The notes below the pieces were generated by a model. It saw only the letters and a program-made list of their open reading frames with translations. It had not been told where the DNA came from and searched no databases. Both the position numbers and the translations under genes were made by a program. From assembly GCA_038087875.1 (NCBI GenBank), contig CM075994.1, forward strand, positions 1,800,001 through 1,864,000: DNA of 64,000 nt, read 5' to 3'. This document shows, in pieces, positions 4,058 through 49,557 of the stretch. Each line of letters opens with the position of its first letter. The stretch's first letter is position 1. This DNA is from Malacoraja senta. Taxonomy: Eukaryota.

Positions 4058-5745
4058 AATAGACAATAGACAATAGGTGCAGGAGTAGGCCATTCGGCCC
4101 TTCGAGCCAGCACCGCCATTCAATGTGATCATGGCTGATCATCCCCAATCAGTACCCCATTCCTGCCTTCTCCCCATATCCCCTGACTCCGCTATCTTTA
4201 AGAGCCCTATCTAGCTCTCTCTTGAAAGCATCCAGGGAACATGCCTCCACCACCCTCTGAGGCAGAGAATTCCACAGACTCACAACTCTCTGTGAGAGAA
4301 AGTGTTTCCTCATCTCTGTCCTAAATGGCTTACCCCTTATTCTTAAACTGTGACCCCTGGTTCTGGACTCCCCCAACATCGGGAACATGTATCCTGCCTC
4401 TAGCGTGTCCAAACCCTTAACAATCTTATATGTTTCAATAAGATTTCCTCTCATCCTTCTAAACTCCAGAGTGTACAAGCCCAGCTGCTCCATTCTCTCA
4501 GCATATGACAGTCCCGCCATCCCGGGAATTAACCTTGTAAACCTATGCTGCACTCCCTCAATAGCAAGAATGTCCTTCCTCAAATTAGGGGACCAAAACT
4601 GCACACAATACTCCAGGTGTGGTCTCACTAGGGCTCTGTACAACTACAGAAGGACCTCTTTGCTCCTATACTCGACTCCTCTTGCTATAAAGGCCAACAT
4701 GCCATTCGCTTTCTTCACTACCTGCTGTACCTGCATGCTTACTTTCATAGACTGATGAACAAGGACCCCCAGATCCCGTTGTACTTCCCCTTTTCACAAC
4801 TTGACGCCATTTAGATAGTAATCTGCCTTCCTGTTTTTGATACCAAAGTGGATAACCTCACATTTATCCACATTAAACTTCATCCGCCATGCATCTGCCC
4901 ACTCCCCCAACCTGTCCAAGTCACCCTGCATTCCCATAGCATCCTCCTCACAGTTCACACTGCCACCCAGCTTTGTGTCATCTGCAAATTTGCTAATGTT
5001 ACTTTGAATCCCTTCACCCAAATCATTGATGTATATTGTAAATAGCTGCGGTCCCAGCACCGAGCCTTGCGGTACCCCACTAGTCACTGCCTGCCATTCT
5101 GAAAGAGACCCGTTAATCCCTACTCTTTGTTTCCTGTCTGCCAACCAATTTTCTATCCATGTCAGCACTCTACCCTAAATACCATGCCCTAATTTTGCCC
5201 ACTAATCTCCTATGTGGGACCTTATCAAATGCTTTCTGAAAGTCCAGGTACATTACATCCACTGGCTCTCCCTTGTCCATTTTCCTAGTTACATCTTCAA
5301 AAAATTCCAGATTAGTCAAGCATGATTTCCCCTTCGTAAATCCATGCTGACTCGGACGGATCCTGTTACTGCTATCCTAATGTGCGGCAATTTCATCTTT
5401 TATAATTGACTCCAGTATCTTCCCCACCATCGATGTCAGGCTAACTGGTCTATAAGTCCCTGTTTTCTCTCTCCCACTTTTCTTAAAAAGTGGGATAACA
5501 TTAGCTACCCTCCAATCCACAGGAACTGATCCTGAATCTATTGAACATTGGAAAATGATCACCAATGCATCCACTATTTCTAGAGCCACTTCCTTAAGTA
5601 CCCTGGGATGCAGACCATCAGGCCCTTGGGATTTATCACCCTTCAGTCCCATCAGTCTATCCAACACCATTTCCTGCCTAATGTGGATTTCCTTCAGTTC
5701 CTCCATCACCCCAGATCCTCTGGCCACTACTATATCAGGAAGATA
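4058..5745 (-). mobile_element. CR1-clade LINE, 5'-truncated, RT and C-terminus
   Basis: Minus-strand ORFs 5377-5802, 4794-5168 (GVPQGSVLGP, KFADDTKL) and 4149-4643 (VRPHLEYCVQFWSP). (CTATTGT)n tail at about 4058-4075. Confidence 0.93.
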
Positions 5746-5885
5746 TAGTATGTGGGTTTTCTCTGGCAAGCTTTGGTTTCCTCCCACACTCCAAAAACTC
5801 ACAGGTTTGTAGGTTAATTGGCTTGGTATAAATGCAAATTATCCCTCGTGTGTGTAGGATAGTGTTAGTGTGCGGGGAATCGCTG

Positions 5886-14479: not shown

Positions 14480-16059
14480 TTTTTTTTATTTTTTTAAATT
14501 AATTTTATTAGAAGTTAATACAATACAAAACAATACAGTGGTACCTAATTTTAGGCGCCAACTATGTCATAACGTAATACATTCTACAACCTCTAGTTTT
14601 ATGTTTTTGAAAAGGAAGTAAAAAAAAACAAAAAATAGAGAGAAGAAAAAGAGGAAAAATAGATAGTAGAAAATAGAAAAACGTGAAGTGTTTATATAAG
14701 AAAAGAAAAAGTAGAAAGTAGAAATAGTAGAAAAAGGCCCTTAAAAAAGAAATTTTCAAATCTTTGTTCGGAGATGTAAATCTATCCGCGACCTGACCTG
14801 AAATCAGTAATCTTTACGGTACTGCTGCATCACATGATTCCAAAAAGTCGATGAAAGGGGACCAACTCCTTAAGAATTGGTCATATTTATCTATTAGGCG
14901 GAGTCTCATTTCTTCAAGATGTGCTATGTCCGTCACATTCCTAATCTACATTTTAATAGTTGGTATAGCTGTATTTTTCCAAAATTTAAGTATCAATTTC
15001 TTTCCAATTATTAATCAATAATTAAAGAATACTTTTTGGTCTTTGTTTAAATTGATATCTTCTACTATTATTCCAAATATAATCCATTCCGTATTAGGTT
15101 CTATTCTTGACTTGAAGAGCTTTGTAAATATATCAAATATATCGCTCCAAAATGTGTTCAACTTTGTACATCGTACAAATGAATGTGTTATATTGGCATT
15201 TTGAAACAAACATTTATCGCATCTGGGAGAGACGTTTGGGTAGAATTTATTCAACCTCGTTTTTGAATAATATAGTCTATGTAATAATTTAAATTGAATT
15301 AAATTATGTCTTGCATTAATGGAACAATTATGTGTGTTCATCAGATACTTTTCCCATCTATCGTTCGGGACCTTTATCATTAGTTCATGTTCCCAATCTT
15401 CTCTTAGTGCCTCTGTTGAGGGTAATTCTCTATTTAATATACTATTATAAAAATATGATATTAGTTTTTGTGAATCAGCCTTAATATTCATTGCTTCTTC
15501 TAAAGGGTCTAAAAATATAGTTTGAAATCTATGTATATATTTCTTCATAAAGTCACATATCTGTATATATTTAAAATATTGATTATCATTCAGTTTAAAT
15601 TTTAATTGTAATTGTTGAAATGATAACAATTTGCCCAATTCATACATATCTCCTACTTTCCTAATCCCCAGTCTATCCCATTGTTTATATGATTTGTCGA
15701 TAAAAGATGGTTTGAATGCAGGATTGTTCAATATTGGGGTTAGTACTGATAGATTATTTAATTTCAAGGATAATTTTATTTGTTTCCAAATTCTTATTGT
15801 ATTGTGAATAATTGGGTTCTTCTTATATATTATACTATTCAATTTTATCGGTGAGAACAAGATCGTTCCTATATCGTACGGGAAACACTCCTCATTCTCC
15901 ATTCTTATCCACTCCGACTGGTGAGTGGAACTATCCAACCAGTACATTATGTTCTTAATATGCACTGCCCAGTAGTAATACGTAAAGTTAGGTAGTGATA
16001 AACCCCCAACTTCTTTAGGTTTACACAAATGCTTTTGTTGAATTCTGTGTGCTCTATAA
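14480..16059 (-). mobile_element. L1-clade LINE, 3' part of ORF2 plus 3' UTR and poly(A)
   Basis: 337-aa ORF 15015-16028 with GGLSLPNF..YYWA and a CCHC knuckle CDKC-X8-H-X4-C. Poly(T) on the + strand at 14480-14496. Confidence 0.92.
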
Positions 16060-18246
<2,187 letters not shown>

Positions 18247-21799: not shown

Positions 21800-23374
21800 A
21801 GGTCACATCTAGAATATTGTGTACAGTTCTGGTTGCCTCATTATAGGAAGGATGTGGAGGCTTTCGAAGAGGGTGCAGAAGAAGTTTACCAGAATGGCGA
21901 AGAAACATGGAACTGCAGATGCAGGTTTACAAAAAAAGACGCAAAGTGCTGGAGTAAGTCTGCGGGTCAGGCAGCATCTGGAGAACATGGATAGGTGATG
22001 TTTTGGGTCGGGACTCTTCTTCAGACTGACACCGGGATTAGTGGCTTTTAGCTATAAAGAGAGATTGGACAAATTTGGATTATTTTGTCTCTAGTGTTGG
22101 ACGTGGGAGGGAATTATATAAAATTATGAGAGGCATAGACAGTCAGAATCTTTTTCACAGGGACGAAATGTCAAATAAAGACATAGCTGTAAGGTGAGAG
22201 GGGAAAGTTTAAAGAAAATGTGCAGGTCATGTATTTTTTTAGAGAGTGATGGGGGCCTGGAACGTGCTGCCAGGGGTGGTAGTGGAGGCAGATACAATAG
22301 TGTTGTTTAAGAGGCTTATAGATAGGCACATGGATATGCAGGGAATGGAGGGAAATGAATCACATGCAGCCTGCAGAGGAGGATTAGTTTAACCTAGTTT
22401 AACATGGACTGATCCTGGAACGTGCCTGGAACGTGCTGCCAGGAAAGTAATAGACACAGACACCATAGCAACATTTAAGAGGCTTTTAAACATACGCATG
22501 AACTGGCGGAGGATGCAGAGATATGGACCATGTGCAGGAGGATGGGATTAGGATTGAAGAGAGATGTGGACGCAGCCCAGACCATCACACAAACCAACCT
22601 CCCTTCATTTGACTCCATCTGCACTTCACGCTGCCTCGGCAAGGCTACCAGCATAATCAAGGACCAGTCTTACCCCGGTCACTCCCTCTTCTCCCCTTTC
22701 GCATCAGGCAAGAAGTTTAGAAGCGTGAAAATGCACTGCTCCAGATTCAGGGACAGTTTCTTCCCAGTTGTTATCAGACAACTGAACCATGCTCTCACCA
22801 ACTAGAGAGCAGTCCTGACCTCACATCTACCTCATTGGAGACACTTGGACTATCTTTAATCGGACTATACTGTACACTGTGGATGGCTTGATTATAATCA
22901 TGTATAGTCTTTCCGCTGACTGGATAGTACCCAACAAAAAATCTTATTGTCACGTGTACTTCGGTACACGTGACAATAAATTAAATCAAACTAAACTAGG
23001 TTAGAGTTAGAGGGAATTTTGTACTTTACCCGTACTCAATATCTGACTTTACTCAGATAGGCACAGACACAAAATAAAACATTTCATAAATCAGTGGTGA
23101 GTTTATCGAACAAGTCGGTTTAATAAAAGGCCTTAGCAATGTACATTGAGAAGCAGTGTGAGCAAGCTCAAACTACTTCAATATCCTACAGTAACTGTAG
23201 GATTCTTATACCCTCATGACACAATGGTTATTTGTGAAGTTGAAATAACAATCATTAATCAGTCTCTGTAACCTTTCATCTTTGTGTTTCCCCAAAGTTA
23301 ACTTTAATCTTGAGTTTCTTGTTGTTTAGAAATCTTCCTCCCATATACAATATCTAACATGTAGATCCCATATA

Positions 23375-24991
23375 CAGTGGCTTGCAAAAGTATTCATACC
23401 CCTTGAACTTTTCCACATTTTGTCACGTTACAACCACAAGCGTAAATGTATTTTATTGGGATTTTATTTGATAGACCAACACAAAGTGGTGCATAATTGT
23501 GAAGTGGAAGGGAAATGATACATGGTTTTCAAAGTTTTTTACAAATAAAAAACTGAAAAGTGTGGCGTGCAAAAGTATTCAGCCCCCCTGAGTCAATACT
23601 TTGTAGAACCATCTTTCGCTGCAATTACAGCTGCAAGTCTTTTGGGGTATGTCTCTACCAGCTTTGCACATCTAGAGACTGAAATTTTTGTCCATTCTTC
23701 TTTGCAAAATAGCTCAAGCTCAGTCAGATTGGATGGAGAGCGTCTGTGAACAGCAATTTTCAAGTCTTGCCAGAGATTCTCAATTGGATTTAGGTCTGGT
23801 CTTTGACTGGGCCATTCTAACACATGAATATGCTTTGATCTAAACCATTCCATTGTAGCTCTGGCTGTATGTTTAGAGTCGTTGTCCTGCTGGAAGGTGA
23901 ACCTCCGCCCCAGTCTCAAGTCTTTTTCAGACTCTAACAGGTTTTCTTCCAAGATTGCCCTGTATTTGGCTCCATCCATCTTCCCATCAACTCTGACCAG
24001 CTTCCCTGTCCCTGCTGAAGAAAAGCATCCCCACAGCATGATGCTGCCACCACCATGTTTCACAGTGGGGATGGTGTGTTCAGGGTGATATGCAATGTTA
24101 GTTTTCCACCACACATAGCGTTTTGCATTTAGGCCAAAAACTTCAATTTTGGTCTCATCTGACCAGAGCACCTTCCTCCACATGTTTGCTGTGTCCCCCA
24201 CATGGCTTGTGGCAAACTGCAAATGGGACTTCTTATGGCTTTATTTCAACAATGGCTTTCTTCTTGCCACTCTTCCATAAAGGAACGATTTGTGGAGTGC
24301 ACGACTAATAGTTGTCCTGTGGACAGATTCTCCCACCTGAGCTGTGGATCTCTGCAGCTCCTCCAGAGTTACCATGGGCCTCTTGGCTGCTTCTCTGATC
24401 AATGCTCTCCTTGCCCGGCCTGTCAGTTTAGGTGGACGGCCATGTCTTGGTAGGTTTGCAGTTGTGCCATACTCTTTCCATTTTCGGATGATGGATTGAA
24501 CAGTGCTCCGTGAGATGTTCAAAGCTTGGGATATTTGTTTATAACCTAACCCTGCTTTAAACTTCTCCACATCTTTATCCGTGACTTGTCTGGTGTGTTC
24601 CTTGGGCTTCATGATGCTGTTTGTTCACTAATGTTCTCTAACAAACCTCTGAGGCCTTCACAGAACAGCTGTATTTATACTGAGATTAGATTACACACAA
24701 GTGGACTCTATTTACTAATTAGGTGACTTCTGAAGGCAATTGGTTGCATTGGATTTTATTTAGGGGTATCAGAGTAAAGGGGGCTGAATACTTTTGCACG
24801 CCACACTTTTCAGTTTTTTATTTGTAAAAAAATTTGAAAACCATGTATCATTTTCCTTCCACTTCACAATTATGCGCCACTTTGTGTTGGTCTATCACAT
24901 AAAATCCCAATAAAATACATTTACGTTTGTGGTTGTAACATGACAAAATGTGGAAACGTTCAAGGGGTATGAATACTTTTGCAAGCCACTG
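23375..24991 (-). mobile_element. Full-length Tc1 IR/DR transposon, Passport-like
   Basis: TA TSD. TIRs of about 215 bp start CAGTGGCTTGCAAAAGTATTCA and carry the internal direct repeat tgcaaaagtattca. Length 1617 bp. Confidence 0.97.
23593..24612 (-). pseudogene. DD34E Tc1 transposase, 339 aa, one in-frame stop
   Basis: ORFs 24241-24612 and 23593-24222 are in the same frame, separated by TAA at 24241-24243. Paired-like HTH with GRPPK, then WSDETK, QQDND and PDLNPIE, with 34 residues between the second D and the E. Confidence 0.95.
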
Positions 24992-25317
24992 TATGTCCAG
25001 ATTCCTCCACCAAATGGAATCCCTGGTAAAATAGGTCATTTGTTAACCTTTGGGTGACTTGCCTGATAAACACATTGACCAAGAGCAGCTTGTAATGCAA
25101 GATTGCAACAGGTAAGAACCCACACAGAACTACAAAGACTCATTCTCCACCCCCCCCCCCACTGATAAGGAAGCTTGTTTTCCAGCAAAATGTTTTAGCT
25201 TTGATATTCTGACTACATTCTTGATTATTTTCCCAACATGCTCGCCAGTATGTGAACTCCAGGATTAACTAAACTATACCCTACTCATCTTCCTTACAAT
25301 TTTCAGAAATCCATACA

Positions 25318-25329
25318 TTTCCCCCTCTT
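25318..25329 (-). promoter_or_regulatory. Polypurine tract of the LTR element
   Basis: AAGAGGGGGAAA on the minus strand, immediately before the TG of the 3' LTR. Confidence 0.85.
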
Positions 25330-25372
25330 GGCAATTGGCCACACCCAATTAAGCCATATTAAACAACACCCT

Positions 25373-26380
25373 CTAATACTGGAGCCTTCCTACCTGCCTA
25401 ACTAACATCAGAGTTCTCAACTTATCATATTGTTTCCTGTTATACCAAAATAACAAAATCAAAACAATTACAATCAATAACTGTACAAATACCAATACAT
25501 GTGATAAAATCTTATTCCATGGGTTCTATTCCAAAATCCTATTCCATCAGCATTCCGCCCCCAGTTCCAGTCCTACCAAGTCCATTTTCTCCAAATGTCC
25601 TCTGCTTCTCTGCCATGCTTCCGAATAATCTTAGTGCCCTCAGACCAGTCACGAATTACCATCTCACCCTCCTTCATCAGTGCCTTCCAATCAGCATGGA
25701 GGTGTGGTATTGGTTGAAGTTTGGTGCGACAAATCCTCTTAATGTCTCATCCACGTCATTCCGTACTACATTCAAGCACACGGTTACCGATTTTTCCTCC
25801 GACGGTACCATCATTTCCTTGTCTCAGATAGTGATCTGGCTCGTAACACCCTGGATTACGACATTATAACCACATGGAATATACTTCCAGCCATTTGTTC
25901 CATACCACTTAGCAGAGGTAGCGACGTACTGTAATATTTCCCCATTGATAGAGCAATACCTGCAAAAGAAGCATTAGGTTTTACATCAATCGCAAGCTTA
26001 CAGTTATTATATGAGTTAATCAACAACCAGACTCCATCCAACTCATTATTTCTTCTTTGATGACATCGGTGCAATCTGATCCCCCCTTGGTTCCTCATCA
26101 ATTTCTACAGAGTATTCAGGAGCATTATGCACTGTTATCCAAGCTCCCTATTTAGATTGTCCAATATTATGCTGCTGGTACAGGGGAAAAAGTCTTATTC
26201 TTCAGCTGGTGTGGAACATGGAGAAAAACTCCAATAATATGTTCCCTGAGCATCTTGGCATATTTGATCCACTTGACTCGCTATAGTCAGCGATCTAAGG
26301 TGACAATCAGGCTGCATATCCTGAGTCCTCTTTTGTATATTACCAGACGCATGCTGAACTTCCAGAACTTGCATCAAAAC
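25373..26380 (-). pseudogene. Envelope glycoprotein remnant (C-terminal half), frameshifted
   Basis: Manual translation gives IIGVFLHVP..FPLYQQHNIG..VHNAPEYSVEI..IRLHRCHQ..., a Trp-rich stretch WRKWTW*DWNW, a TM segment ILSHVLVFVQLLIVIVLILLFW and a basic tail YNRKQYDKLR, with the stop just before the PPT. Confidence 0.7.
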
Positions 26381-26694
26381 AAGCTTTTACAAAATAACTT
26401 ATAAACTCGAAATCAGCAATCAGTAACTCTTGAGCAATATCCGTAAAACCTGCAGAAATACATTGTTATTAGGAAAAGCAATGTTTAAGATTATTCCCCA
26501 ATTGTTCCAATCGATCTCCCAAAATAACAATTTAAAATTCATAGTCCAAATGTATACCATTCACAATTTCCCTAAATGCCAATTTCTTCCTGAAATGTTG
26601 GCATCTCATATCTAGAAAAGAGGCACTCACATTTCTAACACTAACCTGGATTCCACATTTCGTTCAGACCGAAAGGTCTGAATGACAATAAAGG

Positions 26695-29422
<2,728 letters not shown>

Positions 29423-29779
29423 ATCCAGGTCTGTCTTTGAAATCAATAAAAAATGAAAGAATTAGAAAGAAAAGAAACAGACAAAACACAGATAAAACAA
29501 AAAAACTGCATCTTTGCACATCTCCTTCATTCAAACCTTTGGAAGAAAACAAAGAATAAACAATCAATTTCCACATTGAAAGCTTCTCACAAATGTCCAA
29601 ACAATAAAAGATGAATGGGTTCGAGAGGTCTCCTCATACAAATTCTTAAAGGGACACTACCTCAAGAGTACTACAAATACATTCACATAGAGGAGCAGAA
29701 TCATTTAGTCACATCCTATTCCATCTGAGTAATTCAACATTCTCCGAGAACAAATGAGCAAACAATTTAACAATCACTG

Positions 29780-30075
29780 TTTAAGAAGGAACTGCAGATG
29801 CTGGAAAATCAAAGGTAGACAAAAGTGCTGGAGAAACTCAGCGGGTGCAGAAGCATCTATGGTTTTAAGAAGGAACTGCAGATGCGGGAAAATCTAAGGT
29901 ATTTTAAGAGGGAACTGCAGATGCTGTTTTAAGAAAGAACTGCAGATGCTGTTTTAAGAAGGAACTGCAGATGCTGTTTTAAGAAGGAACTGCAGATGCT
30001 GTAACGTTGCCTATTTCCTTCGCTCCATAGATGCTGCTGCACCCGCTGAGTTTCTCCAGCACTTTTGTCTACCTT
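29780..30075. mobile_element. Penelope-derived fold-back repeat with internal 25-bp tandem copies
   Basis: Inverted arms ggtagacaaaagtgctggagaaactcagcgggtgc / gcacccgctgagtttctccagcacttttgtctacc, with tandem ttttaagaaggaactgcagatgctg between them. Confidence 0.7.
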
Positions 30076-30189
30076 AACAATCTTTGTGCTCTCTGACTTC
30101 ATGCTTTTTCTCGCTTCCTTTCATACAAATCTAAATTAACTAGCGAGTTGCCACAACACCTGCAACTCTCTGTTGACTCCCACAGACAT

Positions 30190-30728
30190 TCACACACTTA
30201 TAACATCCCGGTTGCTCAGTCATATCTCTTATCATGCTGGTAATTCATCCTCCTCTCGTACTGACTACTGTTCGAATCAGAGTTACTGGGACTGCAGCTC
30301 GTTTCTTCACATTTATGTCCTCGGGTGGGGACAGTCCATAATCCTCACCATACCCATCTCATTGATACATCTCATTGTCTAAACTTCCCCAGTCAACATT
30401 GTCTCCGTCCATTGGCGGGGCGGTTGGTGACAGCCACCATTCTCCCACAAATTTTAATTTTGTTCTTCCTCCTGTGCACATTCTAATGTTGCTATGTTTA
30501 CCGTTTGTTGTTGGTCCTTTGCCATGGCTGGGAGTATAATTACTCCTTTTTAATATTTCCTCTTCTCTTGTCCCTGCCACCAAGCTTTTTGCTCAGCGAG
30601 CGATGCCTCCGGATTGTACCCTTTCTCTATCATTTTCTCATTACTTTTTTATCACAGTCGACTATAGTTTGTACTATGGATCCCTCGGGCCCCCATTTGA
30701 TGCCAGCACTTTTCTTATCGGCAGCCAT
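30190..30728 (-). pseudogene. Gag N-terminal remnant with PTAP late-domain motif
   Basis: MAADKKSAGIKWGPEGS...EKGYNPEASLAEQKAWW...SPTAPP...VPVTLIRTVVSTRGG, with stops and frameshifts, located downstream of the PBS. Confidence 0.6.
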
Positions 30729-30824
30729 ACTCAGCACATTGAGTGCCCTACAGGTACTTTATACTGTTTGAAACCACTTTCAAGTTACTTACCAACACAA
30801 GCTGTCCTCGTGTCTGCCTTATTG

Positions 30825-31100
30825 CACCAGAGGCTGATGTCTGCCCACACCAGAGGCTGATGTCTGCCCACACCAGAGGCTAATGTCTACCCTCACCAGA
30901 GGCTGATGTCTATTATACCCGAGGCTGATGTTTATTGCACGAGAAGCTGATGTCTCTTCGCACCCGAGTCTGATATCTACCCGCACCAGAAACTGATGTC
31001 TCTCCACACCAGAGGCTGATGTCTACCCGCACCAAAAAGTTGATGTCTACCCGCACCAGAGGCTGATGTCTCTCCGCACCAGAGGCTGATGTCTCAGGCA
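30825..31100. repeat. Minisatellite of about 12 units of 22-24 bp in the ERV leader
   Basis: Unit caccagaggctgatgtct plus 4-6 variable nt. Confidence 0.9.
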
Positions 31101-31399
31101 CAAGAGGACGCTATCTCATGCCACGCGCTGAGTTAGTACCTGTCGTCTAACGCTACCTTTGGAACAGTATCTAATATGTTATAACCCCATGTTAGTATCC
31201 GATGTCGGACACTTTAACCGATCTTGTTCAGCAAAGTCACCACACTTTTCCCCTTTGCTTTCCTCCAGTTTGTTCTTTTGATAGCACAACTTACAGTCAC
31301 CAGACAATAAAAAGGAATCTACTCCTCTAACTATGGGTGGTAAAATCAAACATTCTCACCCGATTAGGAGCCACATTGTTGACGGTTGTCCTGTGTAGG

Positions 31400-31417
31400 A
31401 TCCTGCCAACTACGCCA
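31400..31417 (-). promoter_or_regulatory. Primer binding site, tRNA-Ser
   Basis: TGGCGTAGTTGGCAGGAT, 2 nt after the 5' LTR. Complementary to the vertebrate tRNA-Ser 3' end AUCCUGCCGACUACGCCA with one G-T mismatch. Confidence 0.88.
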
Positions 31418-31419
31418 AT

Positions 31420-32120
31420 TGTTTGAGGGAATTTTGTACTTTACCCATATCTATATCTGACTTTACTCAGATAGGCACAGACACAAAATAAAACATTTCA
31501 TAAATCAGTGGTAAGTTTATCGAACAAGTCGGTTTAATAAAAGGCCTTAGAAATGTACATTGAGAAGCAGTGTGAGCAAGCTCAAACTACTTCAATATCC
31601 TACAGTAACTGTAGGACTCTTATACCCTCATGACACAATGGTTACGTGAAGTTGAAATAACAATCATTAATCAATGTCTCTGTAACCTTTCATCTTTGTG
31701 TTTCCCCAAAGTTAACTTTAATCTTGAGTTTCTTGTTGTTTCAAAATCTTCCTCCCATATACAGTATCTAACATGTAGATACCATGAATGTCCAGATTCC
31801 CCCACCAAATGGAATCCCTCGTAAAAGAGGTCATTTGTTAACCTTTGGGTGACTTCCCTGATAAACACATTGACCAAGAGCAGCTTGTAATGCAAGATTG
31901 TAACAGGTAAGAACCCACACAGAACTACAAAGACTCATTCTCCCCACCCCCCCCCCCCTACTGTTAAGGAAGCTTGTTTTCCAGCAAAATGTTTTAGCTT
32001 TGCTATTCTGACTACATTCTTGGCCATTTTTCCCATCATGCTCACCAGTATGTGAACTCCAGGGGTAACCAAACTATAACCTACTCATCTTCCTTACAAT
32101 TTTCAATATTCCACACAACA
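31420..32120 (-). repeat. 5' LTR
   Basis: TG...CA ends, adjacent PBS, matches 23005-25317. Confidence 0.92.
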
Positions 32121-35100
32121 GTTAGTTTGGCATCATGTTCAGCACAGACATTGTGGGCAGGAGAGTCTGTTATTGCCCTGTATTGTCCTATGCAATCTGT
32201 GTGGAGACAGCTGTGGTATTACAGCACCAGTCATACTGATACTGTGCTGGGCTGCATTATATAGAGATAAGGACACAGCATGGAAACAGGCCCTTCAGCC
32301 CACATAGTCCACGCCAACCATCGATCACCCATTCACACTAATTCCATGTTATCCCACATTCTCATCCACTCCCTACACACTCGGGGCAATTAACAGAGGC
32401 CAATTAACTGACAAACCTGCACGTGGGAAGTGGGAGGAAACTGGAGGATCCAAAGGAAACCCACGCGGCCACAGGGAGAATGTGCAAACTCCACACACGG
32501 ACAGCACCCGAGGTCAGGATCGAATCCGGGTCTCTGGCGCTGTGAGGCAGCAGCTCTACCAGCTGCTCTTCAAACCTCCCTGCTTTTGGGGTGTAGATGT
32601 CGGCCGGCTGGCTGAACAGTAGACACATCCTCCGCATTACATAAAAGTTTCCTACCAAGGAAGAATCCTCCTGCTCTCAAATGTTTAAGGCCCAGGCTAA
32701 TCTAAACCTTATTGAGGTTTGGACATTGAATTAAAACTCAAACAATTCACCAATGATTCATCTGTGATCAATATGGTAGGAGACAGCTAAGCTCATTAAA
32801 ACACATGCACTGTGTCCTGAAAATTAGTCTCAATGAATTGATTCTTTATTTGTAAATCATTTAGAAGGACAATGTCTTTGTGCACAGGGTGGAATGGAAG
32901 ATCTGTCACTGTTTTCAATTAACAAGAGTTTCATAAATGATTAGAGAAGCAAGTAATAGCAGATACTGGAATCTAGTACAAAACACAAAGTGCTGGAGGA
33001 ACTATTGTTGTTGGTTACTGGTTGATACGTTGGAACGATGTTGGATACAGCGTTCGTGCCTCTGAACGGGCAGGTCAGGTAGCATCTGTGGAGGGGAATG
33101 TACTTGAGTGCAGTCCTGACCCATCTACCTCATTGAAGACCTTTGAACTATGTTTAATATGAGTTTATCGGACTTTAATGTTATATCTTGCACTAAATGT
33201 TGTACCCTTTGTTCTTTATCTGTGCACTGTGGACAGCTTGATTATATTCATGTATAGTCTTTTCGCTGACTGGATAGCACACAAACAAAAGCTTTTCACT
33301 GTACCTCCGTACACATGACAATGATAAACTAAACCAAACTAAACTAAACTAAACTAAACCAACATTTGGGGTCGCCTATCCTTTCTCTCCAGAGATGCTG
33401 CTTGGCCCACTAAGTTACTCCAGCACTTTGTGTCTATCTTTGGTATAAACCAGCATCAGCAGTGCTATGTTTCTACAAACCTTCTTCAAACCTGTTTGGA
33501 GTAGGAGAGGGAAAGCAGGAAAAGAGAAGTGGGGGCAGGACAAAGTCTGGTTAGTGATAGGTGGATACAGGTGGGGGGGGGGTGGATTGGTGGATGAGTG
33601 GTGCACAGAGCAGAGGAAGGGGCACTGTTAGATGTTAGACAAATGTTGAAGCATTCAGCTTAATGCCTGAAACATGAAATAACCAGTAAGGACAAAAACT
33701 GTCAAGTTTAGTTTAGAGATACAGTGTGGAAACGGGCCCTTCGGCCCACCAGCGATCACCCGTACACTAGTTCTATCCTACACATTAGGGACAATTTACA
33801 GAAGCTAATTGACCTACAAACCAGCATGTCTTTGGAATGTGGGAGGGAATTAGATCACCCAGAGAAAACCCATGCGGTCACAAGGAGAACATACAAACCG
33901 CATACAAGCAGCACCCGGGTCGAACCTGGGTCTCTGGCGCTGTAAGGCAGCAACCGTATCGCTGCACCACTGTGCCGCACAAATAAGCAAGCAAATAAAA
34001 TAACACAGAGAACTTCAGTAGGAAGCAGAGCTGTAATAATTCAGAAGGTTGCCTGTAAGCAACGACTGGCACTTCGGGAGTTGTGTGGTTGATGCCCTGA
34101 TTACAAAACAAAATACATCAAAAACAAGTCACTCAGCACTGCAAGACATTTTAAATGATCAAAACCTTGCCTTAAGCTTTCACATAATTCACTGACAATT
34201 TGGCTCCATCAGAAATGCTGCCAGGACAGTCTGTACAGATGTAACGAGGTTTCACTCCAAAGCCCAATCCACTCTTACATGGTTCTCTAAGAAAGGCAAA
34301 GGCCAAGGTCCTCAATGAGGTAGAGGTGAATCGGACAGTATCCTAACATGGAAGGATTGTTCAGAAGCCTGATAAAAGAGGGGAAGAAGCTGTTCCTGAG
34401 AAACAAAGAACTGCAGATGTTGGTTTACATATAAAGACACTAAGTGCTGGAGTAACTTAGCGGATCAGGCAGCATCTCTGGAGAACATGGATAGTTACAA
34501 ATAAGTTACAGTCTGAAGCAGGGTCCTGACCCAAAACGTCACCTATCAATTTTTCCAGAGATACTGCCTGACCCATGGAGTTACTCCAGCACTTTGTGTC
34601 TTTAAAGTTTAAAGGAGATGTGCGGGCAAGTTTTTTTACACAAAGGATGGTGGGTGTCTGGAACGCGCTGCCAGGTGGAGGCAGGTACAACTGTGGTGTT
34701 TAAGAAGCTTTTGGATAGGCGCATGGATATGCAGGAAATGGAGGGATACGTATCATGTGCAGGCAGATAGAGGTTTTCTTGGCATCATGTTCAGCACAGA
34801 CATTGTGGGCCGAAGGGCCTGTTCCCATGCTGTACTGCTCTATGTTCTTTGTTTTGTTGCAATTCATACAATTTTTGAATTATGTTTAGCTCATAAAACA
34901 TGTAACACCTTGAACAACAGTATTTTTTTGAGCTGGAAGCTGCCTATAGATAGAAGCCTGGATTCACTAGCAACTTTAAACAGGCATAACCATGGCACCA
35001 CACTCTGCTCATGTGACTGGGGAGAGGGGATCAGAATAAATGTAACAAACTAAAGTGTGAAGCATCACCCAATTAACTGGCACCCAAACATGGGATGTCC

Positions 35101-47489: not shown

Positions 47490-48523
47490 ACCAACAAACA
47501 ACTCCGCCCACCTCTCTTCCCTGTGTCTCACATGGATGTGCATCCATTTCTCCCACTAATCCCACCCTCACTTCCTCTTCTCCCCTTTGACCTACATCCT
47601 TCCTCTGGCTTCACATTTCATGCCTCTTCTCTCTGTCTCTCCTTATCTCACAGCCTTTTGTCTCCTTTTCATCTCTGGCCTTTGTCCACCCATCTGCCAA
47701 TTAATCCGTCCCCCCTCCCCCCTGTATCCACCTATTCTGCAACCCAGGCTGTACTTTTGGAAGAAGGGACCCCACCCGAAATGTTGCTTGTCCCCATCCT
47801 CCAGAGCTGTTGCATGACCCACTGAGTTACTCCAGCAGTTTTGTGACTTTATTTGTAAACCAGCTTCTGCAGTTCCTTATGATTCCACTCGCCAGGCTTT
47901 TTCCTGGCCCCACCTCTCTTCCAACTTTCTCTCCCCTACTACAATCAGTCTGAAGAAAGGTCCTGACACGAAACGTCACCTGTCCATGTTCCGGATGTAG
48001 AAACAAGGAATTGCAAGAACTGCTGAGTCTGAAAAAGGGTTCTGACCCAAGATTTCACGTACACCTTTTCTCCAGAGATGCTGTCTGACCGGCTGAGTTA
48101 CTCCAACATTTTGTTTCTATCTAAAGAATTGCAGATACTGGTTTACAAAAAGAAAGGCACAAAGTGCTGGAGTAACTCAGCAGGTCAGGTAGAATATCTG
48201 GTGAACATGGATAGGTGACATTTTTGTGTTGGGACCCTTCTTCAGACCGACCCACTGAGTTATTCCAGTATTTTGTGTCTCTTTTAGTAAACCAGCATCT
48301 GTAGTTTCTAGTTTTTACATCACTGCAGAAATAGACAGGTGATGTTTCTGGACGGGACCTTCTGCAGACTGACCCGCTGAGTTACTCTGGCACTTTGTGT
48401 CTTTTTTTCAGTAAACCAGCATCTGCAGTTCCTTGTTTCTACATCTCTGGAGAACATGGGAAGGTGACGTTTCAGGTCGGGACCTTTCTTCAGACTGACC
48501 TGCTGAGTTGCTCCAACACTTTG
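47490..48523. mobile_element. Cluster of Penelope-derived repeats in both orientations
   Basis: Repeated ctgaagaa..gacccgaaacgtcacc / gatgctgcctgacc..ctgagttactccagca units. Confidence 0.75.
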
Positions 48524-48560
48524 TTTATGTTCCGGCCACCACCTCCATCAGCGTAAGACG

Positions 48561-49557
48561 ATGAACATCACCGACTGCCCGTCGGGCTCTGGCCCAGAAC
48601 GGACAAAGTCTTTCGCTGAGAAGACGGCGGTCGCTCTGACCCTGTCCCTGGTCATGATACTGACCGCGGCACTGAACGGGGTGGTCATCGCTGCCATCTC
48701 GCTGACCAAGAAACTCCATCAGCCGGCCAACTATCTGATCTGCTCGCTGGCATTGACGGACCTCCTGGTTGCCCTGACGGTGATGCCCCCCAGCATCCTG
48801 TACATCAGTGCTGAGACCTGCTCCTGGGACAGGCCGTCTGCCAAGCCTGGCTTAGCTTGGACATGACCTTCTGCACCTGTTCCATCTTCCACCTGTCTGC
48901 CATTGCCCTGGACAGGTACTGGGCTATCACCGACGCCGTACAGTACTCCCGGAGGAGGACGGGCAGAAGGGTGGCAGGCATGATACTTGCAGCCTGGGTC
49001 CTTTCCGTCTCCATATCCGTGCCGCCCCTGTTCTGGAGAAGCCGGACGGTCAATGGACAATGGGGCAACAGTGTACAATCAGACATGACCATGCCATCTA
49101 CACCATCTACTCCACGTTTGGAGCTTTCTACGCCCCGCTGGGCTTGATCCTCATCCTCTACTACCGTATCTACCGTGCGGCCAGGACTCTTCACCGCCGG
49201 CGAGCTTCCAGCTGCAAATTGGCTCACACCTCTTGCCCGTCAGAGGCGCCGCGATCGGGTAGCCAGCCGGGCCGGGAGAAGGGGGTCGGCGAACAGCCTG
49301 TGTCCATGGGGAGGGAGCGCCGGGCGGCCAGGGTCCTGGGTCTCATCCTGGGCGCCTTCGTTCTGTGCTGGCTGCCCTTCTTCATTAAGGAGCTGCTGGT
49401 TGGGATGCAGGTTTGGACCGCCTCGCCCACCTTGGGCGACCTGCTCACCTGGCTGGGCTACCTCAACTCCCTGGTCAACCCCCTGCTCTACACCAGCTTC
49501 AACCAGGACTTTGCAACTGCCTTCCGCAGGATGGCTAGCTGTGGGAGGTACGGATAG
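48561..49557 (+). pseudogene. HTR1E: 5-hydroxytryptamine receptor 1E orthologue with two frameshifts in this assembly
   Basis: Three consecutive ORF pieces give [111 protein letters not shown] and LTWLGYLNSLVNPLLYTSFN. The N-terminus, the CKL motif and the CGA synteny point to 1E rather than 1F. Confidence 0.9.

What the first reader, a model, noticed from the sequence alone, without database searches (positions are those of the whole stretch)
23000..32125. Complete-ended ERV-like element with tRNA-Ser PBS, 5-bp TSD and no pol
Seen: both LTRs, TSD GTTAG, an 18-nt Ser PBS, a PPT, and gag and env remnants in retroviral order. I found no RT, RNase H or integrase motifs between them. The LTRs differ by scattered substitutions, so the insertion is old. 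Inference: an internally deleted or non-autonomous retrovirus from a lineage poorly sampled in cartilaginous fishes. The ORF track does not show it.
Basis: partly seen in the sequence, partly recalled or inferred. Interest (0 to 1): 0.72.

Follow-up and report, generated by a model that had tools for sequence, protein, structure and literature searches.

The report
Gutted ancient fish retrovirus, odd envelope
This is a real but long-dead retroviral insertion that lost its enzyme genes and was later peppered by other mobile DNA; its front end resembles a known shark retrovirus, while its envelope gene remnant is of a different, unidentified type.

Summary
The anatomy is real: minus-strand LTR element 23005-32120, 701-bp 5' LTR, TSD GTTAG, PBS 17/18 complementary to tRNA-Ser(AGA/TGA), PPT, and no pol motifs. 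The core is about 4.5 kb. LTR divergence is 4.4-5.1% (K2P). No protein or Pfam search hit gag or env. By eye, about 55 gag codons match, in order, the published SnRV-like elephant-shark ERV (CmiERV lineage I), which has the same PBS, so a class III retroviral origin is likely. The env remnant has a real membrane anchor (0 of 500 shuffles) but no gamma-type ISD or CX6CC motif, unlike CmiERV; an F-like envelope is suggested by eye only. Contigs from four organisms show a multi-copy family: some copies are colinear with this short form, others leave it near 30230. Best reading: a decayed copy of a pol-less, helper-dependent SnRV-like ERV subfamily. Pol-less Ser-primed class III copies are already described (XtERV-S).

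The parts
23000..23004 (.). Left target-site duplication GTTAG
   Evidence: the junction reads GTTAG-A-GTTAG, so the boundary is ambiguous by 6 nt
23005..23374 (-). 3' LTR, outer part (terminal dinucleotide mutated)
   Evidence: 95.7% to 31421-31785; ends printed
23375..24991 (-). Secondary insertion: complete Tc1 transposon, about 220-bp TIRs, TA duplication; transposase interrupted by one in-frame stop
   Evidence: inverted repeat 96%; DDE_3 E=3.6e-12 and HTH_Tnp_Tc3_2 E=4.4e-17; ends; ORFs
24994..25317 (-). 3' LTR, inner part
   Evidence: 92.2% to 31785-32117
25318..25329 (-). Polypurine tract, 12 nt
   Evidence: directly abuts the 3' LTR
25364..26650 (-). env-like remnant, broken by many stops (25-31 per frame) and frameshifts; membrane anchor at 25442-25498 followed by a short basic tail; no ISD or CX6CC
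   Evidence: no homolog found; upstream limit approximate
26658..26694 (+). Probable 3' tail of a non-LTR retroposon (perfect hairpin 26663-26682, then AATAAA) leading into the microsatellite; inferred secondary insertion
   Evidence: sequence; single copy in the window; the assignment is inference
26695..29419 (.). Compound microsatellite (TATC)n/(TGTC)n/(TGTCTCTC)n, 2.7 kb
29420..29775 (-). Unassigned internal sequence ending in a pyrimidine-rich tract (possible env splice acceptor or signal peptide)
   Evidence: covered by family contigs in all four runs; no Pfam hit; role is inference
29776..30073 (.). Secondary insertion of head-to-head SINE-like pieces with a 9-bp duplication (29767-29775 / 30074-30082)
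   Evidence: joint skipping 307 bp in contigs of 3 of 4 runs; many similar pieces elsewhere in the window
30074..30230 (-). Unassigned internal sequence; some relatives leave the window's sequence at about 30230, 30181 or 30128
   Evidence: table 8
30230..30800 (-). 5' gag remnant: PTAP late-domain motif at 30427; acidic NVDWG-type motif at 30400; probable start of capsid. Upper limit approximate
   Evidence: collinear by-eye match to CmiERV scaffold-2 gag
30824..31094 (-). Leader tandem array, 23-bp unit, about 12 copies; shorter in relatives
   Evidence: records 10 and 11 of run X2
31400..31417 (-). Primer-binding site, tRNA-Ser(AGA/TGA), 17/18
31420..32120 (-). 5' LTR, 701 bp, TGTT...AACA
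32121..32125 (.). Right target-site duplication GTTAG

Best explanation
A dead copy of a short, pol-less subfamily of an SnRV-like (class III) endogenous retrovirus. Shown: it has every cis signal needed for retroviral copying (LTRs, Ser PBS, PPT, a 5-bp duplication of the kind integrase makes) but encodes no enzyme, so it was either copied by proteins from a full-length helper or lost pol after insertion. Inferred: its RNA, with leader and 5' gag as packaging signal, was packaged, primed on tRNA-Ser, reverse-transcribed and integrated by a helper. The deletion of most of gag plus pro-pol predates this insertion, because paralogous copies are colinear with the short form. After insertion it decayed neutrally (LTRs about 5% apart) and took up a Tc1, a SINE-derived insert and a retroposon tail whose microsatellite expanded. 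Its env remnant is not gamma-type.
For: Cis anatomy. CmiERV lineage I, which groups with SnRV, has the same PBS next to its LTR. About 55 gag codons match it in order by my by-eye translation; the NVDWG-type motif occurs once in six frames of the window. No tblastn hit at E<=1 to the 18 loci fetched with this PBS, 4 of which were shown to encode Gypsy-type RT-RH-IN. All 30 bins of 29425-32265 are covered in 4 of 4 runs, with 15-27 variant contigs at one internal site and 53-61 at one LTR site. X9 record 23 (54 other letters in about 450, depth 88 where most listed X9 records have 7-10) and X2 record 9 run colinearly from gag into 29500-29766. X2 record 10 and X9 record 24 leave the window at 30232 and 30230 and continue for 774 and 498 letters, as longer forms would. 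Precedent: 19 deleted XtERV-S relatives keep LTRs, PBS, leader, 5' gag and PPT, with 5-bp TSDs.
Against: The gag link is by eye only; every database search was empty. No pol-bearing relative was seen: the letters of the departing contigs are not shown, those contigs are 12-17% divergent, and they could simply fall under the 80% cut-off or carry insertions. Only 27 records of about 248,900 pieces were listed. The far side of the microsatellite was not examined in other copies, so part of the loss may be specific to this locus. The host class is unverified.
Confidence: 0.6

Rival explanations
1. An ordinary full-length SnRV-like provirus inserted here and lost gag-3'/pro/pol in place, for example at the retroposon-tail/microsatellite insertion; the colinear contigs in other organisms are orthologues of this locus.
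For: The 2.7-kb microsatellite sits where pol should be. X2 record 9 and X9 record 22 are low-depth, about 4% divergent and lack the SINE-derived insert, which fits orthologues. Retroposon insertions can delete target DNA (recalled).
Against: X9 record 23 is about 12% divergent, high-depth and still colinear across 30230, which fits a paralogous group. No protease or RT motif lies in the roughly 500 bp between gag and the microsatellite.
Confidence: 0.25
2. A non-autonomous Gypsy/Metaviridae (or lokiretrovirus-derived) element that carries an env-like gene.
For: Gypsy-type gag-pol elements use the identical Ser PBS after CA+2 nt. 4-6-bp TSDs are general for LTR elements. The env remnant has by-eye echoes of loki Env.
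Against: No similarity to those elements. The gag motif match is to a retrovirus. The two loki consensus PBSs that I read differ, and the Ser-PBS word occurs once, inside a coding region, in the held (cut) loki supplement. Loki was found in 0 of 6 chondrichthyan genomes.
Confidence: 0.1
3. A segmental duplication or assembly artefact that mimics an LTR pair.
For: The assembly may carry indel errors: a nearby HTR1E-like coding exon has two frameshifts, and the microsatellite is very pure.
Against: PBS, PPT and TSD all sit at the expected junctions. Independent contigs bridge leader-PBS-LTR (X2 record 11, X5 records 20 and 21), and one X1 contig is identical to 30367-30682.
Confidence: 0.03

Closest known systems
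CmiERV lineage I (elephant shark, SnRV-like; Han 2015, PMC4422223)
   Same: tRNA-Ser PBS beside the LTR, TGTT...AACA termini, tandem repeats in the leader, collinear gag motifs just before the probable capsid start (by eye); LTR divergence of the same order (0.033 there).
   Different: CmiERV is full-length with pol and a gamma-type env (ISD and CX6CC read by eye). This copy lacks pol, and its env remnant has neither motif.
XtERV-S and its deleted relatives (Xenopus; PMC8278194)
   Same: Class III, tRNA-Ser(AGA/TGA) PBS, TGT/ACA ends, 5-bp TSD, about 700-bp LTR; 19 deleted copies keep PBS, leader, 5' gag and PPT (passages).
   Different: ERV-L-related gag-pol and a class I TM there. Here the gag resembles the SnRV-like CmiERV, and about 1.3 kb of non-gamma env is kept.
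Lokiretroviruses (Wang and Han 2021, PMC7947760)
   Same: Env with a long cysteine-containing segment between cleavage site and membrane anchor; three short motifs in the same order and similar spacing (by eye).
   Different: Different PBS in the two consensuses read; no gag resemblance seen; not found in 6 chondrichthyan genomes; no statistical support for env homology.
ERV3/ERV4 classes (Chong et al. 2014, PMC4299795)
   Same: 5-bp TSD typical of ERV3 and ERV4, against 4 bp for ERV1 and 6 bp for ERV2.
   Different: These classes are defined by Pol phylogeny, which cannot be tested here; that paper leaves SnRV-related ERVs unclassified.
Ser-primed Gypsy-type elements (L002, L004, L013, L016)
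   Same: Identical PBS context.
   Different: Intact gag and pol ORFs; no detectable similarity to this element.

Membership tests
LTR retroelement (Ortervirales provirus) | Paired LTRs with TG...CA ends | tested here: met
   95% alike; 3 of 4 terminal dinucleotides intact; 3' LTR split by Tc1
LTR retroelement (Ortervirales provirus) | 4-6-bp TSD, PBS next to 5' LTR, PPT next to 3' LTR | tested here: met
SnRV-like / class III ERV | RT phylogeny groups with SnRV or spuma-related ERVs | not testable with these tools
   no pol in this copy; no genome held
SnRV-like / class III ERV | 5-bp TSD | tested here: met
   typical value; one locus only
SnRV-like / class III ERV | Gag homologous to a member of the group | tested here: inconclusive
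   strong collinear motif match by eye to CmiERV-I; no scored alignment; database search empty
Gamma-type Env | ISD and CX6CC upstream of the membrane anchor | tested here: not met
   no exact-pattern hit inside the element in six frames; decay could hide one motif
Lokiretrovirus | RT sister to Retroviridae, with tether and RH | not testable with these tools
   no pol
Lokiretrovirus | Env similar to paramyxovirus F (PF00523) | tested here: inconclusive
   no Pfam or PDB hit on single broken frames; fold at pLDDT 35; by-eye echoes only
Gypsy/Metaviridae | Gag or Pol similar to Gypsy elements | tested here: inconclusive
   no tblastn hit to 18 loci with this PBS and no Pfam hit; small comparison set, decayed query
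Non-autonomous (helper-dependent) subfamily | Several independent insertions share the same internal deletion | tested here: inconclusive
   divergent, high-depth colinear contigs, but flanks and TSDs of other copies were not seen

The most novel reading that the evidence does not exclude
An undescribed retroviral lineage of cartilaginous fishes joins an SnRV-like, Ser-primed gag backbone to an F-like (paramyxovirus/loki/foamy-type) envelope, where the described shark ERVs have a gamma-type one, and it spread through several related host species largely as a pol-less, env-keeping satellite of a helper. That would place an F-like envelope in a third retroviral lineage and bear on whether F-like Env is ancestral for retroviruses.
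Probability: 0.3. Interest if true: 0.65.

Novelty: new member of a known kind. Interest (0 to 1): 0.36.

Why it matters
As a locus it is a neutral fossil, and pol-less ERV copies are common. Its value is as a pointer. RT-based screens and gamma-Env-based screens would both miss this form, and the family is present in at least four organisms. If full-length relatives confirm an SnRV-like pol with a non-gamma, F-like env, this gives a new data point on the origin of retroviral envelopes, which Wang and Han left open among four scenarios. The nested Tc1, the SINE-derived insert absent in relatives and the LTR pair also make a usable clock for neutral rates in the host group.

Tried and rejected
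Own-genome search: no genome held. Pfam on 12 internal frames: 3 weak, unrelated hits at E 0.13-0.59. Word-indexed protein searches: 0 of 1897, 0 of 56 and 0 of 34 candidates. Full phmmer of one of the three minus-strand env frames against 1.84 billion representatives: 0; the other two frames were not run there. PDB phmmer of three env frames: 0, 0, and 1 irrelevant hit at E=1.7. ESM Atlas: no result obtained, so it is untested. AlphaFold2 of a 100-aa env piece without alignment: pLDDT 34.6, so no fold search was run. IMG/VR: the Ser-PBS scan gave 1 match in a GC-rich contig with long ORFs and no tRNA, taken as chance; loki-PBS scan 0; gag and env pieces 0 of 16 and 0 of 10 candidates. ARAGORN and Rfam: nothing in the window. 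Orthology of the insertion in other organisms: no listed record bridged the LTR-flank junction, and that flank is repetitive. Earlier scan findings: none. Literature: nine searches showed no description of this family. Repbase and Dfam were not available, bioRxiv supplements are closed, the loki supplement is cut, and 2 of 14 supplement files of PMC10435555 were not searched, so absence from print is not established.
Full report
Observation. The element is on the minus strand, from 32120 down to 23005. The 5' LTR is 31420-32120, 701 bp, TGTT...AACA. It matches 23006-23371 at 95.7% and 24990-25317 at 92.2%. The 3' LTR is split by a complete Tc1 at 23375-24991 with TA on both sides, about 220-bp inverted repeats, and HTH and DDE Pfam hits. 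GTTAG flanks both ends. The outer end of the 3' LTR has lost its terminal dinucleotide, and the junction reads GTTAG-A-GTTAG, so 'complete-ended' is slightly generous. The PBS at 31400-31417 is unique in the window even with three mismatches (0.05 expected; 5 of 100 shuffles had a match). It pairs 17/18 with the tRNA-Ser AGA/TGA end printed in PMC10359600 (passage seen). A 12-nt PPT abuts the 3' LTR. Inside lie a 2,725-bp compound microsatellite, preceded by a hairpin and AATAAA that I take for a retroposon tail (inference), and a 307-bp SINE-derived insert with a 9-bp duplication. Without these the element is about 4.46 kb, with about 3.07 kb between the LTRs, too little for pol as well as the remnants. 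No pol domain or convincing motif was found.

Age. Pairwise LTR comparison gave K2P 0.044 (29 of 685 sites) or 0.051 (34 of 691 sites with corrected ends, SE about 0.008). That is about 12 Myr at the mammalian rate or about 116 Myr at the tenfold slower shark rate assumed by Han 2015, so the date is uncertain tenfold. The Tc1 repeats differ at 10 of 223 positions, which suggests a comparable age if they began identical.

What the PBS does not show. A metagenome scan for this PBS after CA+2 nt gave 17 loci. I scanned long ORFs of 5 of them: four encode RT, RNase H and integrase of the Gypsy type, and the fifth reference was misframed. None of the 18 loci held resembles the element by tblastn at E<=1. 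So a Ser PBS alone does not make a retrovirus.

Gag. Database searches were empty. The supplement of Han 2015 (main text part 1 of 2 and supplement parts 1-2 of 3 read) shows that CmiERV scaffold 2, lineage I, which groups with snakehead retrovirus, has the same PBS beside its LTR. Translating part of its gag by eye, I found four motifs in the same order as in the window over about 55 codons from 30400 down to about 30245: NVDWG.LD.E..Q, ED.G..PP, K.R then PV, and RT.V then GG. The first occurs once in the six frames of 64 kb; the pattern was chosen after seeing both sequences. A PTAP motif lies just upstream, at 30427. I could not score this alignment, but it is the best evidence for a class III retroviral origin. 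The 5-bp TSD agrees (typical of ERV3 and ERV4; passages of PMC4299795). I cannot follow the match beyond about 30245.

Env. All three minus frames hold 25-31 stops in 460 codons. A 19-residue hydrophobic stretch at 25442-25498 (mean hydropathy 3.0) was reached by 0 of 500 dinucleotide shuffles. A short basic tail follows and ends just before the PPT, where a retroviral membrane anchor belongs. The ISD and CX6CC patterns are absent, while both complete CmiERVs have gamma-type TMs by my reading. No homolog was found, and a fold failed. By eye, against the Loki-Oja Env in the supplement of PMC7947760 (main text parts 1-3 of 4 and supplement parts 8 and 15 read), a cysteine cluster and three short motifs appear in the same order and similar spacing before the anchor, spread over different reading frames. 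This is a lead chosen after the fact, not a test; I put an F-like envelope at about even odds. A non-gamma env in such a lineage would not be shocking: foamy Env is F-like (title and listing of PMC11468914; keyword passages), and epsilonretrovirus Env is neither gamma nor beta type (passage).

Family. Twenty of 21 listed runs hold some words of the env stretch, only one more than half. I laid 4 runs, from four organisms and four studies, on 29425-32265. All 30 bins are covered in each. One X1 contig is identical to 30367-30682. The SINE-derived insert is skipped exactly in contigs of X2, X5 and X9. Records colinear from gag past 30230 include X2 record 9 and X9 record 22 (about 4% different, low depth, possibly orthologues), X9 record 23 (about 12% different, depth 88), X1 record 1 and X5 record 15. 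Records that leave the window's sequence are X2 record 10 at 30232 and X9 record 24 at 30230 (774 and 498 further letters), X1 record 3 at 30181 (103) and X1 record 2 at 30128 (1,286). Two organisms leaving at the place where the gag match ends suggests longer relatives and a deletion point there. Their letters are not shown, only 27 records were listed, and depth is no copy number.

Mechanism and verdict. Shown: retroviral-type integration, intact cis signals, no enzymes, neutral decay, secondary insertions, and a family spread over four organisms. Inferred: SnRV-like origin (strong by-eye evidence), deletion before insertion with helper-dependent spread (0.6), loss of pol in place (0.25), Gypsy or loki derivative (0.1). 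Complementation in trans is an established route of ERV spread (passage of PMC10435555), and XtERV-S has 19 deleted relatives with the same PBS and TSD length (passages of PMC8278194). Clade III ERVs are the majority in cartilaginous fishes (passage). This is most safely a new member of a known kind, and the unidentified envelope is the part worth following.

Noticed in passing
window 48474-49557 (+): HTR1E-like serotonin receptor coding exon (best PDB hit 5-HT1E, E=1.2e-55) spread over three reading frames, that is two frameshifts: a pseudogene or assembly indel errors. If errors, some frameshifts in the ERV may be artefacts too. The ERV lies about 16 kb upstream, antisense; whether it is inside a 5' intron is unknown.
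   Followed up: partly
window 23375-24991: Near-intact Tc1 (Sleeping Beauty-type HTH) with one in-frame stop between two ORFs; TIRs 4.5% apart.
   Followed up: partly
window 31420-31800: In run X1 a few LTR-matching contigs have very high depth (14,000-20,000 at single sites, against about 20-30 for the listed records) and carry short deletions. This may be an LTR-derived repeat or subfamily amplified in that organism.
   Followed up: no
window 26643-26650 and 29423-29430: An 8-bp inverted match flanks the retroposon-tail and microsatellite block, and no direct duplication was seen; may be chance.
   Followed up: no
window 4794-5838 (-) and 15015-16064 (-): Decayed LINE pieces with RVT_1 and zf-RVT hits.
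   Followed up: no
L002, L004, L013, L016, L018: Apparently intact gag-pol elements with the tRNA-Ser PBS in metagenome contigs (four shown to be Gypsy-type, one gag with a PNMA-family hit), probably host-animal DNA.
   Followed up: partly
window LTR pair: Transversions equal or exceed transitions between the LTRs (16 ts, 18 tv), unusual for neutral decay; unexplained.
   Followed up: no
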